Shown in pieces: positions 5,855 through 9,758 of a stretch of 38,285 nt of DNA. The position numbers and the translations under genes were made by a program. Below the pieces are notes generated by a model. That model was not told the DNA's origin. It worked only from the letters and a program-made list of their open reading frames with translations, and searched no databases. Numbering within the stretch: position 1 is the first letter of the stretch; every line of letters begins with the position of its first letter. The DNA is taken from the IMG/VR virus record IMGVR_UViG_2645727978_000010. One strand, written 5' to 3'. Source of the stretch: a virus. Taxonomy: Duplodnaviria; Heunggongvirae; Uroviricota; Caudoviricetes.

Positions 5855-6098
5855 CTTTTTTCCCCTTAACGCCGGGTGGCGGAACGTTTTATCTACTGCG
5901 CTTTGTATCAATCAACAACTGCCGTCATGTTCGTATGCCTCAGGCTGGCTACTTAGCCCTGTTCAGTGGCTGGATAACTCGAGGTATTGTCCTGCCGTTC
6001 TCTGGTGGGGCGTTGTTTGGATATGCTTATTAAACACAATGCGTTTTCTTATGTCAACACGATATGTGTTTTGTGGTGAGTGTCATATGATGATGGTA

Positions 6099-6124
6099 CA
6101 AAAAAGCCCGCTGATAGCGGGCTG
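6099..6124 (-). terminator. Rho-independent terminator after repressor gene
   Basis: On minus strand: AGCCCGC-TATCA-GCGGGCT hairpin followed by TTTTTT (forward 6100-6105 is AAAAAA); 30 bp past the racR-like stop. Confidence 0.5.
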
Positions 6125-6153
6125 ATTGGCATATTACTGTGATAGCAAGATCA

Positions 6154-6573
6154 TTACTCCGGTGGGGGATTATCTTTAAGCCTGCCTCTCAAATATTTTT
6201 CTACATACTCATCGATTTCTTTTAGCCGGACTTCAAATAGCTCAATCATTCGTTGTTGTTCTGAGCCCGGTAGCTGGTTAAACAACTCAAGAAGTTTTCG
6301 TTGGGATTCATTTAACCACAATTCAGAAGATTCCTGTTCTCCAAATAGGAGCTCAGGAGGAGATATGCCAAGTGCCTTTCCCAATACGACAGCGTCATGC
6401 ACTCCAACATTTCTGCTGCCCGCCTCATAGTTACCTATACGCGATTGCGTCCATCCGCAGATTTCAGCAAGTTTTCCTTGAGATAAACCAAGCTTCTGCC
6501 TGCGCTCTTTAAGACGCATTGCAATTTTGTCATTGAGCCTACTAGCGGCAATTTTTTCGTTTTCTTTTTCCAT
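6154..6573 (-). CDS. Phage repressor, HTH XRE family (RacR/CI-like), 139 aa
   Basis: Track ORF; AAGGA RBS; clear helix-turn-helix LGLSQGKLAEICGWTQSRIGNYEAG; divergent from a Cro-like gene across an operator-containing intergenic region. Confidence 0.8.
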   Translation of the reverse strand: MEKENEKIAASRLNDKIAMRLKERRQKLGLSQGKLAEICGWTQSRIGNYEAGSRNVGVHDAVVLGKALGISPPELLFGEQESSELWLNESQRKLLELFNQLPGSEQQRMIELFEVRLKEIDEYVEKYLRGRLKDNPPPE

Positions 6574-6584
6574 TGCATCCTTGT

Positions 6585-6599
6585 ATCACGAATCGTGAT
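6585..6599. promoter_or_regulatory. Operator-like perfect palindrome ATCACGA-A-TCGTGAT
   Basis: Perfect 7-1-7 inverted repeat in repressor/cro intergenic region, overlapping the repressor gene RBS. Confidence 0.5.
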
Positions 6600-6620
6600 T
6601 TATATAAAACACAAAACAGC

Positions 6621-6651
6621 TTGACCATATAACACAAGGTGTGTTTAAAAT
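6621..6651 (+). promoter_or_regulatory. Candidate rightward early promoter (TTGACC ... TAAAAT) with embedded operator palindrome AACACA-AGG-TGTGTT (6631-6645)
   Basis: -35 TTGACC 6621-6626, -10-like TAAAAT 6646-6651 (19-bp spacer; alternative TTTAAA with 17 bp); palindrome between them; a further AACACA half-site at 6608-6613. Confidence 0.4.
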
Positions 6652-6669
6652 TGTCATCGGAGGTTTTCA

Positions 6670-6912
6670 ATGAACAAAATTTCAACATATCGAAAACAGC
6701 TTGGGCTGTCTCAAAGACAACTTGCTGTTCAGTTAGGGTGGATACAAAGCCGACTGGCAAATTACGAAGCAAATTTTCGTACCCCTGGACTAGAGGAGTG
6801 CAGAAAAATTGTTTCTACCCTTAATCGGCTTGGCACTCATTGTGGACTTGACGATGTATTCCCCCCAGACGGTAAGCATAGCGAAAACAGCATAGGAGCG
6901 GTTGATTCATGA
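6670..6912 (+). CDS. Cro-like HTH regulator (YdaS-like), 80 aa
   Basis: Track ORF; GGAGG RBS 6659-6663; HTH LGLSQRQLAVQLGWIQSRLANYE; first gene of rightward operon, divergent from repressor. Confidence 0.75.
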   Translation: MNKISTYRKQLGLSQRQLAVQLGWIQSRLANYEANFRTPGLEECRKIVSTLNRLGTHCGLDDVFPPDGKHSENSIGAVDS

Positions 6913-7331
6913 AAATCAGGCATGAGCACATCGAATCAGTGTTGTTAGCCCTGGCAGCCGAAAAAGGGCAGGCGTGGGTCGCTAACGCAATTACTGAAGA
7001 ATATCTGCGCCAGGGGGGCGGCGAATTGCCCCTTGTACCAGGCAAGGACTGGAACAATCAGCAGAATATCTATCACCGTTGGTTGAAAGGTGAAACGAAA
7101 GCGCAAAGGGAAAAAATTCAGAAACTGATCCCTGCGGTTCTGGCAATTCTTCCGCGCGAGCTGCGTCACCGACTCTGCATCTTCGATACCCTGGAACGCC
7201 GTGCATTACTGGCGGCGCAGGAAGCGTTGAGTACGGCAATTGATGCGCATGATGATGCAGTCCAGGCCGTTTACCGGAAAGCACATTTCAGCGGTGGTGG
7301 GTCGCCCGGCGATTCTGTCGTAGTGCATTGA
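6909..7331 (+). CDS. ydaT: YdaT-like protein (140 aa)
   Basis: Track ORF; ATGA overlap with upstream cro-like gene; 140-aa size and sequence recall Rac YdaT. Confidence 0.65.
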   Translation: MKIRHEHIESVLLALAAEKGQAWVANAITEEYLRQGGGELPLVPGKDWNNQQNIYHRWLKGETKAQREKIQKLIPAVLAILPRELRHRLCIFDTLERRALLAAQEALSTAIDAHDDAVQAVYRKAHFSGGGSPGDSVVVH

Positions 7332-7375
7332 TTGAAATTAATCGTGCCGGATTGTTTTGTTCGGTATCAGTTAAA

Positions 7376-7396
7376 TGTAACGCTGCGAGCGTTACA
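7376..7396. repeat. Iteron-like palindrome TGTAACGCT-GCG-AGCGTTACA (copy 1)
   Basis: Perfect 9-bp arms; 13 bp upstream of ydaU-like start codon. Confidence 0.6.
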
Positions 7397-7408: not shown

Positions 7409-8221
7409 ATGGCTTCAAACTGGATAAAGCTCGAGGTTATTACGCCGGATAAGCCGGAAATATTCAGGCTTGCTGAGATTCTGAATATTGATCCAGATGC
7501 CGCATTAGGGAAGGTTATTCGCTTCTGGGCATGGGCGGATCAACAAATGATAGACGGTAATGCAGATTGTAACGCTCGCGGCGTTACAAAAAGTGCAATA
7601 GATCGCATCACTTTTATGGCTGGTTTTGCTGATGCGTTAATTCAGGTTGGATGGCTGGTCGAAAATGACGTTGGGCTTTCTCTACCTAACTTTGAACGTC
7701 ATAACGGAAAAAGCTCTAAAAAACGGGCGGTTACAAACGAGCGAGTTACAAAAATACGCGAACTGAAACGAAAAGGTAACGCTGCCAGCGTTACACAAAC
7801 GGATCAAAAAGCGTTACCAGAGGAAGAGGAAGAGGAAGAGGAAGAGGAAGAGGAAGAGGAAGATCTAAATACTGATCTCCCCCTAAATCCCCCTCGCCAA
7901 AAACGAGCGTCTAAAAAATTCGAGCCGGAGGCTATTGAGCTGCCTGATTGGTTGCCGGAAACACTCTGGCATGAGTGGGTCCGGTTCAGACAGGCATTGC
8001 GAAAACCGATTCGAACGGAGCAGGGCGCTAACGGGGCGATACGGGAACTGGAAAAATTCCGTCAGCAGGGTTTTACACCTGAGCAGGTGATTCGACACAG
8101 CATCGCCAATGAATACCAGGGCTTGTTCGCACCGAAAGGTGTTCGGCCTGAGACGTTGCTCCGACAGGTTAACACCGTCTCGTTGCCGGACAGTGCGATC
8201 CCGCCAGGCTTCAGGGGGTAA
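7409..8221 (+). CDS. YdaU-like phage replication protein (270 aa) with internal poly-Glu tract
   Basis: Track ORF; AAGGTG RBS; immediately upstream of DnaC-like loader (O/P-like arrangement); contains iteron-like palindromes and a 14-Glu run. Confidence 0.6.
   Translation: MASNWIKLEVITPDKPEIFRLAEILNIDPDAALGKVIRFWAWADQQMIDGNADCNARGVTKSAIDRITFMAGFADALIQVGWLVENDVGLSLPNFERHNGKSSKKRAVTNERVTKIRELKRKGNAASVTQTDQKALPEEEEEEEEEEEEEEDLNTDLPLNPPRQKRASKKFEPEAIELPDWLPETLWHEWVRFRQALRKPIRTEQGANGAIRELEKFRQQGFTPEQVIRHSIANEYQGLFAPKGVRPETLLRQVNTVSLPDSAIPPGFRG
7568..7588. repeat. Iteron-like palindrome TGTAACGC-TCGCG-GCGTTACA (copy 2, inside ydaU-like CDS)
   Basis: Perfect 8-bp arms sharing the GTAACGC core with copy 1. 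Confidence 0.6.
7730..7751. repeat. Direct repeat of GTTACAA half-sites (7730-7736 and 7745-7751)
   Basis: Two copies of GTTACAAA 15 bp apart, same core as the palindromes. Confidence 0.45.
7776..7794. repeat. Iteron-like palindrome GTAACGCTG-C-CAGCGTTAC (copy 3, inside ydaU-like CDS)
   Basis: Perfect 9-bp arms; an extra AGCGTTAC half-site follows at 7810-7817. Confidence 0.6.
7820..7861 (+). repeat. Hexanucleotide tandem repeat (GAGGAA)x7 encoding 14 consecutive Glu
   Basis: Seven perfect GAGGAA units, in frame within ydaU-like CDS. Confidence 0.9.
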
Positions 8222-8996: not shown

Positions 8997-9758
8997 ATGG
9001 AGACTGTTTTTGACGCACTGAAAGCAATGGGAAAAGCCACGTCGGTAGAGCTGGCTGCGCGACTTGATATCAGTCGTGAAGAAGTGCTGAACGAACTATG
9101 GGAACTGAAAAAGGCTGGTTTTGTTGATAAAAGCGCGTACACCTGGCGTGTGGCTGATAACAACGTTCAGCAGGAACAGCCAGCGCAGGCAGAACTGCCG
9201 GAAGAAACCACCACAGCAACAGTAGCGAAAATCTCAGAGTGCGATTTAACCGCGACGATTGAACAACGCGGACCACAAACGGCTGATGAGCTGGCTACAT
9301 TGTTTGGTACCACATCACGCAAAGTGGCTTCAACGCTGGCAATGGCAATCAGCAAAGGTCGTCTGATTCGCGTAAATCAGGGCGGTAAATTTCGTTACTG
9401 CATACCGGGCGATAATTTACCAGCAGAGCCGAAAGCAGCATCGGTAGCGGAAACTGATGGTAAGGCCTTTCCTCAGCCCGCAGGTGTTGCGTTACCAGTA
9501 CGTGAGGCTGCAACACAGGAAGATATTAAAACAGAAACTGTGGCGGACATTGTGCAGTCGCTGCCATCGTTTACTGAAACGCGAGCGGATGACCTGGTTT
9601 TACCATCGCTGCATATGGCAAACCGCGAACTGCGTCGGGCGAAAAGTCATGTCCAGAAGTGGGAACGAGTCTGTGCTGCGCTGCGGGAACTGAACAAGCA
9701 CCGGGATATTGTTCGACAGATTACTGATTCTTCTCGCTGTGTTGCATCGGAAAAGTGA
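8997..9758 (+). CDS. Hypothetical phage protein (253 aa)
   Basis: Track ORF 8946..9758; start placed at ATG 8997 preceded by GGGAG-type RBS (alternative ATG 8946 overlaps upstream gene and lacks RBS). Confidence 0.5.

What the first reader, a model, noticed from the sequence alone, without database searches (positions are those of the whole stretch)
6574..6669. Compact repressor/cro genetic switch with two distinct palindromic operators
The 96-bp region between divergent HTH genes holds ATCACGA-A-TCGTGAT (6585-6599), overlapping the repressor RBS, and AACACA-AGG-TGTGTT (6631-6645), between the -35 and -10 of the rightward promoter. Two different palindromes suggest that repressor and Cro-like protein recognise different sites rather than sharing operators as in lambda.
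Basis: seen in the sequence. Interest (0 to 1): 0.35.

Follow-up and report, generated by a model that had tools for sequence, protein, structure and literature searches.

The report
Rac-type prophage repressor/Cro operator set
The two palindromes are real operator sites of an ordinary lambda-style lysogeny switch in an E. coli Rac-like prophage. They are two variants of one 15-bp operator family, not two unrelated sites. Comparison with relatives suggests one variant is tuned to Cro and the other to the repressor.

Summary
Both palindromes exist exactly as described, in the 96-bp gap between a DicA-like repressor gene (6154-6573, minus) and a Cro-like gene (6670-6912, plus). The prophage is a Rac-family E. 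coli prophage.

They are not two different kinds of site. Both are 15-bp 6-N3-6 repeats with the same CAC-N5-GTG core (A-W-CAC-R-N3-Y-GTG-W-T).
- a conserved half-site midway between the two (6608-6622);
- two sites at a leftward promoter beyond the repressor gene (6033-6047 and 6056-6070).

The layout is therefore lambda-like: OR3/OR2/OR1 with centres 23 bp apart, plus OL1/OL2.

In 37 distinct relatives the half-sites are almost invariant, while the central triplets and the rest of the gap vary (p = 6e-5).

The repressor's DNA-binding domain and Cro are paralogues with near-identical recognition helices, so overlapping recognition is expected. Across mosaic relatives, the repressor-proximal site tracks the Cro type and the PR/OL sites track the repressor type. 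This supports differential preference, which is also how lambda works.

Verdict: a new, uncharacterised immunity specificity of a known kind of switch. Interest is modest.

The parts
6154..6573 (-). Prophage repressor gene, 139 aa. It has an N-terminal HTH_3 domain and a DicA-like helical C-terminal domain. No LexA/S24 peptidase domain was detected.
   Evidence: ORF. Pfam HTH_3 E = 4.7e-13 and no other domain. Full-length homology to K-12 DicA: 29% identity, E = 2e-15. PHROG transcriptional regulator. No similarity to RacR.
6670..6912 (+). Cro-like gene, 80 aa, HTH_3. It is the first gene of the rightward operon.
   Evidence: Its HTH is paralogous to the repressor's. It is unrelated to K-12 YdaS and to DicC. 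The closest solved structure is 28tn_A, E = 3e-14.
6585..6599 (.). Proposed to be the site Cro prefers and a weak site for the repressor.
   Evidence: Exact palindrome. Half-sites are invariant in 37 unique relatives while the central triplet varies: AAT, ATT, ATG, ATA. ATCACG is kept in type B and D loci and becomes ACCACG with Arg-type Cro.
6608..6622 (.). Candidate OR2, AACACA-AAA-CAGCTT. The left half-site is strong and the right half is weak. It overlaps the PR -35 by 2 bp.
   Evidence: Three mismatches to the pattern. Its centre lies exactly 23 bp from both OR3 and OR1. The left half AACACA is invariant and the right half varies in 37 relatives. A better middle site exists in type B, CTCACGTATCTGTAG.
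6631..6645 (.). It lies in the spacer and -10 region of the rightward promoter. Proposed to be the repressor's primary site.
   Evidence: Half-sites are conserved (1 variable column) with at least 10 different central triplets among relatives. The same motif recurs at OL.
6621..6651 (+). Putative PR: -35 TTGACC (6621-6626), then -10 TTTAAA (6644-6649, 17-nt spacer) or TAAAAT (6646-6651, 19-nt spacer).
   Evidence: Relaxed consensus scan, 9-10 of 12 matches. CTTGAC and GTGTTTA are invariant in alignment A1. The strict scanner did not call it.
6033..6047 (.). OL1, AACACAATGCGTTTT. It lies in the spacer and -10 region of the putative leftward promoter PL.
   Evidence: One mismatch to the pattern. 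Its position relative to the PL -35 matches that of OR1 relative to the PR -35, a 4-nt gap in both.
6056..6070 (.). OL2, AACACG-ATA-TGTGTT. It overlaps the PL -35 by 2 bp and lies 575 bp from OR1.
   Evidence: Exact pattern match. An AACAC[GA]-N3-TGTGTT site is present in all 54 unique downstream regions of relatives, again with a variable central triplet.
6029..6057 (-). Putative PL: -35 TTGACA (6057..6052), 17-nt spacer, -10 TTTAAT (6034..6029). It points toward the kilR/recET side.
   Evidence: 11 of 12 consensus matches. The genes to the left are on the minus strand.
6105..6123 (-). Intrinsic terminator of the repressor gene. It separates the gene from OL/PL.
   Evidence: Stem of 8 pairs followed by a T-run on the minus strand. 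Perfect 7-5-7 palindrome.
6599..6627 (-). Candidate maintenance promoter for the repressor: TGGTCA (6627..6622), 17-nt spacer, TATAAA (6604..6599). This placement is uncertain.
   Evidence: 9 of 12 matches. The -10 is not conserved in relatives, where it reads TGTAAA or CGTAAA. The promoter position therefore remains unresolved.
6902..6919 (.). YdaT (CII-analogue) box, TTGATTCATGAAAATCAG, at the junction of cro and ydaT. It marks the PRE-analogue region.
   Evidence: 17 of 18 matches to the footprinted CP-933P site TTGATT-N6-AATCAA (PMC9986795). It occupies the same position as in CP-933P and K-12 Rac (PMC11879457).
6909..7331 (+). ydaT, the CII-like regulator gene.
   Evidence: Pfam YdaT_toxin. 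PHROG CII-like activator. 95% identical to K-12 Rac YdaT.

Best explanation
**Proposal.** This is the immunity switch of a Rac-family lambdoid prophage. It is built like lambda's but carries its own, previously uncharacterised operator specificity.

**The operators.** Dimers of two paralogous HTH proteins recognise one family of 15-bp operators, A-W-CAC-R-N3-Y-GTG-W-T. The two proteins are the 139-aa DicA-like repressor and the 80-aa Cro.
- Three sites lie 23 bp apart between the genes: OR3 at 6585-6599, OR2 at 6608-6622 and OR1 at 6631-6645.
- Two more lie at the leftward early promoter: OL1 at 6033-6047 and OL2 at 6056-6070.

**In the lysogen (inferred).** The repressor fills the AACAC-type sites OR1, the OR2 half-site, OL1 and OL2, probably cooperatively. 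This blocks PR and PL. OR3 carries T instead of A at half-site position 2 and G at position 6, so it is a poor repressor site and the repressor gene stays on.

**After derepression (inferred).** Cro is made from PR and binds OR3 first, because ATCACG is its preferred half-site. OR3 sits at or just upstream of the start of the repressor transcript, so repressor synthesis stops. At higher levels Cro also binds the AACAC sites through the shared CAC core and turns down early transcription.

**Establishment (inferred).** YdaT, bound at its box at 6902-6919, provides CII-like establishment transcription of the repressor.

**Shown.** The sites exist, they share a motif, they are selectively conserved, they co-vary with the partner proteins, and the proteins are homologous.

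**Inferred.** Who binds where, the order of occupancy, and the promoter positions.
For: - **Motif.** The shared pattern has 3 exact hits against 0.00 expected. All hits with at most 1 mismatch fall in the two regulatory regions that flank the repressor gene.
- **Layout.** The OR site centres are 23 bp apart, at 6592, 6615 and 6638. The OL centres are also 23 bp apart. OR1 and OL1 sit identically relative to the PR and PL -35 hexamers.
- **Selection.** Among 37 unique 96-bp intergenic regions from E. coli and Salmonella relatives, 1 of 24 OR3+OR1 half-site columns varies against 34 of 72 other columns (Fisher p = 6e-5). Five of 6 central-triplet columns vary. The OL palindrome is present in all 54 unique downstream regions.
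- **Paralogy.** The repressor N-terminal domain and Cro are 45% identical over 42 aa, E = 2e-10. Their recognition helices read TQSRIGNYE and IQSRLANYE.
- **Natural swaps.**
  - Type B loci carry a 99%-identical Cro. The DNA is 99.9% identical from exactly the cro ATG rightward. Their repressor is about 60% identical and their PR/OL sites are CTCAC-type. They still keep ATCACG at OR3.
  - L198-200 have the window's repressor helix and AACAC-type OR1/OL sites, but an Arg-type Cro and ACCACG at OR3.
  - All Arg-containing Cro groups have ACCACG. The Ile, Asn, Ser and Thr types have ATCACG at OR3 wherever a repressor-proximal site was identified, except L210.
  - Loci with an unrelated LexA-type CI keep the ATCACG site next to the repressor gene, while their promoter-region palindromes differ.
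- **Studied relatives work this way.**
  - CP-933P PaaR2 and YdaS give overlapping footprints in a 97-bp gap, and that prophage also has PL/OL (PMC8630535).
  - K-12 RacR uses three 6-n3-6 15-bp operators (PMC9638921).
  - The YdaT box is present at the cro/ydaT junction (PMC9986795).
Against: - No binding or expression data exist for this immunity type (one search found no paper).
- Promoters are consensus matches only. The candidate repressor promoter's -10 is not conserved in relatives, so the position of OR3 relative to the transcript start is uncertain.
- OR2 is only a half-site in this window. Its conservation could have another cause: it overlaps a YdaT-box-like TGATT-N6-AAACA at 6596-6611.
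- The co-variation rests on a handful of lineages that are not phylogenetically independent. OR3 is physically linked to the repressor gene, not to cro.
- Two cases do not fit the simple rule.
  - Phage pAEv1818 has an ATCACG-type site at OL.
  - Locus L210 has the two site types in the opposite positions.
- The repressor has no recognisable autocleavage domain, so the induction route is unknown.
Confidence: 0.62

Rival explanations
1. The two palindromes are orthogonal operators. The repressor binds only the AACAC-type sites and Cro binds only the ATCACG palindrome, with no shared occupancy.
For: - The T/A difference at half-site position 2 is symmetric and is invariant in all 37 type-A relatives.
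- OR3 tracks the Cro type and OR1/OL track the repressor type.
- In L205-209 the repressor-region palindromes are unrelated to the ATCACG site.
Against: - The two sites share 10 of 15 positions and the whole CAC-N5-GTG core.
- The two proteins have near-identical recognition helices.
- In type B and D loci, OR3 and OR1 differ by only 1-2 bases per half-site, so the same Cro evidently copes with both.
- With a single site, Cro could not turn down PR and PL late in infection.
- The CP-933P repressor and Cro footprints overlap (PMC8630535).
Confidence: 0.15
2. All the sites are equivalent operators for both proteins. The differences between OR3 and OR1 are neutral or merely historical, and the direction of the switch is set by other means such as cooperativity, looping or YdaT.
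For: - The core, the geometry and the recognition helices are shared.
- In K-12 Rac, YdaS was reported not to repress racR, while YdaT does affect racR expression through the intergenic region (PMC9638921, PMC11879457).
- A YdaT-box-like element overlaps 6596-6611.
Against: - Neutral differences would not stay fixed. Position 2 of OR3 is T in every type-A relative, although the flanking and central bases drift.
- The position switches to C in step with the Cro type.
Confidence: 0.15
3. Palindrome 1 acts at the RNA level, as a small hairpin in the 5' leader of the repressor mRNA just upstream of the Shine-Dalgarno sequence. It would affect translation or stability and would not be a protein operator.
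For: - It can form a 6-bp stem with a 3-nt loop, -5.3 kcal/mol.
- A conserved stem with a variable loop triplet is also what a hairpin would show.
Against: - The fold is not better than shuffles: z = -1.45, and 20 of 200 shuffles fold as well.
- No compensatory changes are seen.
- The same motif occurs at OR1 and OL, where no such leader exists.
- In types B-E the site is imperfectly symmetric, which is typical of operators.
- No Rfam family matches.
Confidence: 0.05

Closest known systems
Bacteriophage lambda CI/Cro switch (OR1-OR2-OR3, OL, CII/PRE)
   Same: - Divergent repressor and cro genes.
- Three related operators about 23-24 bp apart between them.
- Related operators at a distant leftward promoter.
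- The repressor-proximal operator differs from the PR-proximal one.
- A CII-like activator has its site at the cro/cII junction.
   Different: - The operators are 15 bp (6-N3-6) rather than 17 bp.
- Repressor and Cro are paralogous HTH_3 domains. This resembles phage 434 and differs from lambda, whose Cro has a different fold (established knowledge).
- No S24 autocleavage domain was detected in the repressor.
- Only two OL sites were found.
- The CII role is taken by an unrelated POU-type protein, YdaT (PMC9986795).
CP-933P (E. coli O157:H7) PaaR2/YdaS/YdaT switch (PMC8630535, PMC9986795)
   Same: - Same gene order, with a 97-bp intergenic region against 96 bp here.
- Experimentally overlapping repressor and Cro footprints that cover both promoters.
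- A PL/OL set beyond the repressor operon.
- A YdaT box at the cro/ydaT junction.
   Different: - The operator sequence differs: 18-bp repeats with consensus GTTTAGTAA.
- The CP-933P repressor operon carries a toxin-antitoxin pair and its repressor gene is leaderless. Here the repressor gene is monocistronic, with a Shine-Dalgarno sequence and its own terminator.
- Protein-level relatedness of PaaR2 and YdaS to this pair was not tested.
K-12 Rac prophage RacR/YdaS/YdaT (PMC9638921, PMC11879457)
   Same: - Same prophage family and flanking genes (recET, kilR, ydaT, ydaU/V-like).
- YdaT is 95% identical.
- RacR operators are also three 15-bp 6-n3-6 inverted repeats.
   Different: - Repressor and Cro are unrelated in sequence to RacR and YdaS.
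- The operator half-site is WTAGGC rather than AWCACR.
- RacR's O3 overlaps its own start codon.
Qin prophage DicA/DicC (PMC3441716)
   Same: The repressor is a full-length homologue of DicA, with an HTH and a LLELFNxLPxSEQ helical C-terminal domain (29% identity, E = 2e-15). The repressor and cro-like genes are divergent.
   Different: - The DicA operator Oc is a 20-bp repeat, TTGTTAGTCATAACTAACAA.
- DicC is unrelated to this Cro.
- Only one functional DicA operator has been reported.
Phage 434 repressor/Cro
   Same: - Repressor and Cro share an HTH_3 fold and similar recognition helices.
- They bind one set of short symmetric operators whose outer bases are conserved and whose central bases are not contacted. 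Small operator differences set the preference (established knowledge).
- 434 repressor is a detectable sequence relative, E = 6.5e-4.
   Different: Operator sequence and length differ (ACAA-N6-TTGT, 14 bp). The 434 repressor has a RecA-sensitive C-terminal domain.

Membership tests
Lambdoid CI/Cro-type bistable immunity switch | Divergently transcribed repressor and cro genes, both encoding DNA-binding proteins | tested here: met
   ORFs at 6154-6573 (minus) and 6670-6912 (plus), both with HTH_3.
Lambdoid CI/Cro-type bistable immunity switch | Multiple related operators in the intergenic region, overlapping the divergent promoters | tested here: inconclusive
   Two perfect sites and one half-site share a motif and lie 23 bp apart. 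Overlap with PR rests on a consensus match. The repressor promoter has not been located.
Lambdoid CI/Cro-type bistable immunity switch | The same operator type at a second, leftward early promoter (OL/PL) | tested here: met
   Sites at 6033-6047 and 6056-6070 lie at TTGACA-17-TTTAAT on the minus strand. They are conserved in all 54 unique relatives.
Lambdoid CI/Cro-type bistable immunity switch | Repressor and Cro bind the same operators with opposite affinity order | not testable with these tools
   Only indirect evidence is available: shared recognition helix and co-variation of OR3 with Cro and of OR1/OL with the repressor.
Lambdoid CI/Cro-type bistable immunity switch | Repressor with a RecA-stimulated S24 autocleavage domain (classical lambda, 434 and P22 type) | tested here: not met
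   The protein is 139 aa and Pfam finds only HTH families. Its C-terminus is DicA-like.
Rac / CP-933P-type module (repressor - cro analogue - YdaT) | A YdaT-family CII analogue immediately downstream of cro, with a TTGATT-N6-AATCAA box at the junction | tested here: met
   Pfam YdaT_toxin E = 5e-11. 95% identity to K-12 YdaT. The box is at 6902-6919 with 1 mismatch.
Rac / CP-933P-type module (repressor - cro analogue - YdaT) | Repressor and Cro homologous to RacR and YdaS of K-12 | tested here: not met
   BLASTP gives E = 2.0 and no alignment, respectively.
DicA-family prophage repressors | Full-length similarity to DicA (HTH plus helical C-terminal domain) | tested here: met
   29% identity over 129 aa, E = 2e-15.
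DicA-family prophage repressors | A DicA-type operator (Oc, TTGTTAG-N6-CTAACAA) | tested here: not met
   Here the operators are AWCACR-N3-YGTGWT. The Oc sequence is from PMC3441716.

The most novel reading that the evidence does not exclude
In this prophage family, Cro and the repressor may have evolved separable half-site codes. The residue before the QSR motif of the recognition helix would read base pair 2: Ile, Asn or Ser with T, Arg or Lys with C, and the repressor's Thr, Ala or Val with A. OR3 would then be an essentially Cro-only operator and OR1/OL repressor-only operators.

Because of this, recombination can swap the cassette [repressor DNA-binding domain + OR + OL] while keeping the same cro. 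The breakpoint lies exactly at the cro ATG. This would generate heteroimmune prophages that still share one Cro.

Such a shared Cro could act in trans on the OR3 of a co-resident heteroimmune prophage. It would shut off that prophage's repressor and couple the induction of the two prophages.
Probability: 0.2. Interest if true: 0.5.

Novelty: new member of a known kind. Interest (0 to 1): 0.3.

Why it matters
This immunity type is common: 153 of 5,426 complete E. coli genomes carry it, including O55:H7, O145 and O157 strains, and it also occurs in Salmonella. No paper was found on it.

Knowing its operator code allows prediction of which Rac-like prophages are homo- or heteroimmune. It also gives a naturally replicated set of operator/helix pairings for studying how HTH_3 proteins discriminate a single base pair.

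Two cassettes share one identical cro. That hints that Cro-mediated cross-talk between co-resident prophages is possible.

None of this changes the general picture of lambdoid switches.

Tried and rejected
- **Genome-collection scan with Cro**. It returned only two distant Pseudomonas loci, which were of no use.
- **Look-up of P0020**. The protein is not on record.
- **Strict promoter scanner**. It missed PR and PL because both have T at -10 position 2.
- **Leftward promoter TGGTCA-17-TATAAA as a firm repressor promoter.** Rejected, because its -10 is not conserved in relatives.
- **Palindrome 1 as a YdaT site.** Rejected, because the YdaT box is TTGATT-N6-AATCAA and sits at 6902-6919. A weak YdaT-box-like element does overlap its right arm at 6596-6611.
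- **RNA hairpin reading.** Not significant.
- **Rfam search.** Only a sub-threshold Trp_leader hit over the terminator, taken as chance.
- **Klebsiella phage Kp4865-4** (L013). It shares only the repressor's C-terminal domain and has a different HTH and different operators, so it was not used for the operator comparison.
- **Literature search** for the operator sequences and protein accessions. It found nothing.

Full report
**What the window is.** The 1.5 kb around the finding is 100% identical to chromosomal prophage DNA in several E. coli strains. The annotated neighbourhood is typical of a Rac-family lambdoid prophage. In order, it reads:
- int, xis, ralR, recT, recE, kilR;
- a helix-turn-helix gene on the minus strand;
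- a helix-turn-helix gene on the plus strand;
- ydaT, a replication-initiator gene, and ydaV.

In window coordinates the repressor gene is 6154-6573 (minus, 139 aa). The Cro-like gene is 6670-6912 (plus, 80 aa) and ydaT is 6909-7331.

YdaT is 95% identical to K-12 Rac YdaT. The repressor and Cro, however, are unrelated in sequence to K-12 RacR and YdaS. The repressor is a full-length homologue of Qin DicA (29% identity, E = 2e-15) and has no S24 peptidase domain. So this is a Rac-type prophage carrying a different immunity cassette. That cassette is present in 153 of 5,426 complete E. coli genomes.

**Checking the observation.** The gap between start codons is 96 bp.

Taken singly they are not remarkable. 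The window holds 27 perfect palindromes with arms of at least 7 (14.4 +/- 4.7 in shuffles) and 77 with arms of at least 6 (58.8 +/- 8.3).

Two details need correcting:
- Palindrome 1 ends 2 nt upstream of the Shine-Dalgarno AAGGA (6582..6578). It does not overlap it.
- The rightward promoter is only a consensus match: TTGACC at 6621-6626 with TTTAAA or TAAAAT downstream, 9-10 of 12. The strict scanner did not report it.

**The two palindromes belong to one operator family.** Written one above the other, both are 15-bp 6-N3-6 repeats with CAC at positions 3-5 and GTG at positions 11-13. They differ symmetrically at half-site positions 2 (T against A) and 6 (G against A).

The pattern that unites them, AWCACRNNNYGTGWT, has three exact matches in the 38-kb window against 0.00 expected. 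The third match, AACACGATATGTGTT at 6056-6070, was not used to derive the pattern. With one mismatch allowed, a fourth site appears 23 bp away, AACACAATGCGTTTT at 6033-6047, and nothing appears anywhere else in the window.

These two sites lie just beyond the repressor gene's terminator (6105-6123). They sit on a strong leftward promoter match, TTGACA 6057..6052, 17 nt, TTTAAT 6034..6029, scoring 11 of 12. The geometry matches the rightward promoter. One site starts 4 nt after the -35 hexamer and runs into the -10. The next overlaps the -35 by 2 bp. This is an OL/PL set.

In the intergenic region a third, weaker site (AACACAAAACAGCTT, 6608-6622) lies exactly midway. The three centres (6592, 6615, 6638) are therefore 23 bp apart, as are the two OL centres. 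The layout is lambda's OR3-OR2-OR1 plus OL.

**Evidence that the sites are functional.** A scan of viral contigs with the repressor returned 80 loci. Together with E. coli and Salmonella loci fetched earlier, they give 37 distinct 96-bp intergenic sequences of this immunity type. The counts are:

| Feature | Result |
|---|---|
| OR3 + OR1 half-site columns that vary | 1 of 24 |
| Other intergenic columns that vary | 34 of 72 (Fisher p = 6e-5) |
| Central-triplet columns that vary | 5 of 6 |
| OR3 | always ATCACG-N3-CGTGAT, with four different triplets |
| OR1 | always AACACA-N3-[TC]GTGTT, with at least ten triplets |
| OR2 | left half invariant, right half drifts |
| OL palindrome AACAC[GA]-N3-TGTGTT | present in all 54 unique downstream regions |

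Conserved outer bases with free central bases is the classic signature of a dimeric HTH operator.

An RNA-hairpin reading of palindrome 1 is not supported. The fold is -5.3 kcal/mol with z = -1.45, and no Rfam family matches.

**Do the two proteins use different sites?** The repressor's DNA-binding domain and Cro are paralogues (45% identity over 42 aa, E = 2e-10). Their recognition helices are nearly the same: GWTQSRIGNYEAG against GWIQSRLANYEAN. This predicts a shared core recognition, as in phage 434. It argues against fully separate operator sets.

The family nevertheless supplies natural swap experiments that speak for different preferences:

- **Type B: same Cro, different repressor** (E. 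coli PEC178, phage record PP818812, Salmonella).
  - The Cro is 99% identical. The DNA is 99.9% identical from exactly the cro ATG rightward, whereas 6445-6669 is unalignable.
  - The repressor is about 60% identical, with helix GWSGSSRIANYE.
  - The PR and OL operators are CTCAC-type. The repressor-proximal site still begins ATCACG.
- **Group C: similar repressor helix, Arg-type Cro** (Citrobacter phage Chris1 and many viral contigs).
  - The repressor helix is GW[A/V/S/T]QSRIGNYE. In L198-200 it is identical to the window's.
  - OR1 and OL are AACAC-type. Cro has Arg before QSR.
  - OR3 is invariably ACCACG-N3-CGTGTT.
- **Groups D and E extend the pattern.** Ile-, Asn-, Ser- or Thr-type Cro goes with ATCACG. 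Arg- or Lys-containing Cro goes with ACCACG. OR1 and OL follow the repressor helix: TTCAC in group D and G[AT]CAC in group E.
- **Loci with an unrelated LexA-type CI.**
  - L205-209 have a 221-aa CI. They keep an ATCACG site beside the repressor gene, while the promoter-region palindromes are of a different kind.
  - L220 has a 239-aa CI. It carries the same ATCACG-type and AACAC-type pair as the window.

The OR3-to-OR1 distance is 46-49 bp in all groups.

The best reading is differential affinity within one operator family. OR3 is tuned to Cro and detuned for the repressor. OR1, OR2 and OL are tuned to the repressor.

There are caveats:
- The lineages are few and not independent.
- OR3 is physically linked to the repressor gene.
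- pAEv1818 has an ATCACG-type site at OL, and L210 breaks the rule.

**Mechanism proposed.**

*Shown:* the motif family, its placement, its selective conservation, and its co-variation with the partner proteins.

*Inferred:*
- In the lysogen, repressor dimers occupy OR1 (plus OR2) and OL1/OL2 and block PR and PL. OR3 stays free, so the repressor gene is transcribed.
- After derepression, Cro binds OR3 first and shuts off repressor synthesis. It then binds the other sites through the shared CAC core.
- YdaT acts as the CII analogue. Its box TTGATTCATGAAAATCAG lies at 6902-6919, matching the footprinted CP-933P site at 17 of 18 positions and in the same position (PMC9986795, PMC11879457).

*Unresolved:*
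- The repressor maintenance promoter. The best match, TGGTCA-17-TATAAA (6627..6599), has a -10 that is not conserved in relatives.
- Whether OR2 is a true cooperative site.
- Whether OL and OR, 575 bp apart, loop together.
- How the repressor is inactivated.

**Comparison with what is known.** The logic matches lambda and, in protein terms, phage 434.

| Relative | What matches | What differs |
|---|---|---|
| CP-933P (PMC8630535) | PaaR2 and YdaS footprints overlap in a 97-bp gap; a PL/OL set exists | Operator sequence; whether the proteins are related was not tested |
| K-12 Rac (PMC9638921) | RacR uses three 15-bp 6-n3-6 operators, WTAGGC-n3-GCCTAW | Operator sequence; repressor and Cro are unrelated |

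No paper mentioning these operator sequences or protein accessions was found. No sequenced phage in the collection carries this repressor; the best match is 66% identity.

**Verdict.**
Different preferences are likely. 'Distinct sites rather than shared operators as in lambda' is not supported.
- It is a new member, meaning a new immunity specificity, of a well-known kind of switch.
- The natural Cro-sharing mosaics and the apparent single-base-pair discrimination are a tidy system for specificity studies. They would not surprise a phage biologist. Interest is 0.3.

Noticed in passing
window 7377-7395, 7569-7587, 7776-7794: Three copies of a 19-bp palindrome, GTAACGCT-N3-AGCGTTAC (one copy is 7-5-7), lie about 190-210 bp apart. 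One is just upstream of the replication-initiator gene (7409-8221) and two are inside it. They could be initiator binding sites or origin elements.
   Followed up: no
window 6670 (cro ATG), compared with L003: The mosaic breakpoint falls exactly at the cro start codon. DNA is 99.9% identical to type B prophages from 6670 rightward. The segment 6445-6669 (repressor HTH domain plus the whole intergenic region) is unalignable. Further left, identity is 85%. Two different repressor/operator cassettes therefore share one cro.
   Followed up: partly
L044 and L103 (contig IMGVR_UViG_2574180332_000004): One 58-kb viral contig carries both a type A and a type B (Salmonella-like) immunity region about 47 kb apart. 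This suggests the two types co-reside and are therefore heteroimmune. It could also be an assembly or binning join.
   Followed up: no
window 6596-6611, 7329-7344, 9364-9379: There are further YdaT-box-like elements (TGATT-N6-AATCA, 0-1 mismatch) besides the one at the cro/ydaT junction: 5 in the window against 2.1 expected. The one at 6596-6611 overlaps the right arm of palindrome 1 and the OR2 half-site. K-12 YdaT is reported to bind the racR-ydaS intergenic region (PMC11879457).
   Followed up: partly
L004 (GenBank PP818812, 'Actinobacillus phage vB_Apl-pPE4'): This record is 96% identical to E. coli Rac-like prophage DNA across kil, repressor, cro and ydaT. The stated Actinobacillus host looks doubtful. 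It may be an induced E. coli prophage or a contaminant.
   Followed up: no
window 7409-8221: The replication-initiator protein contains an uninterrupted run of 14 glutamates. The orthologue annotated in NZ_CP066032 is 795 nt long against 813 nt here, so some length difference exists between the two. Whether it lies in the glutamate run was not checked.
   Followed up: no
L013 (Klebsiella phage Kp4865-4) and L205-L220: The repressor is modular. The DicA-like C-terminal domain also occurs fused to an unrelated HTH. Conversely, Cro relatives of this family pair with LexA-type 221-239-aa CI repressors.
   Followed up: partly
window 6098-6184 (minus): There is a sub-threshold Rfam Trp_leader hit (27.5 bits against a gathering score of 41) over the repressor terminator. 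It is taken as chance.
   Followed up: no
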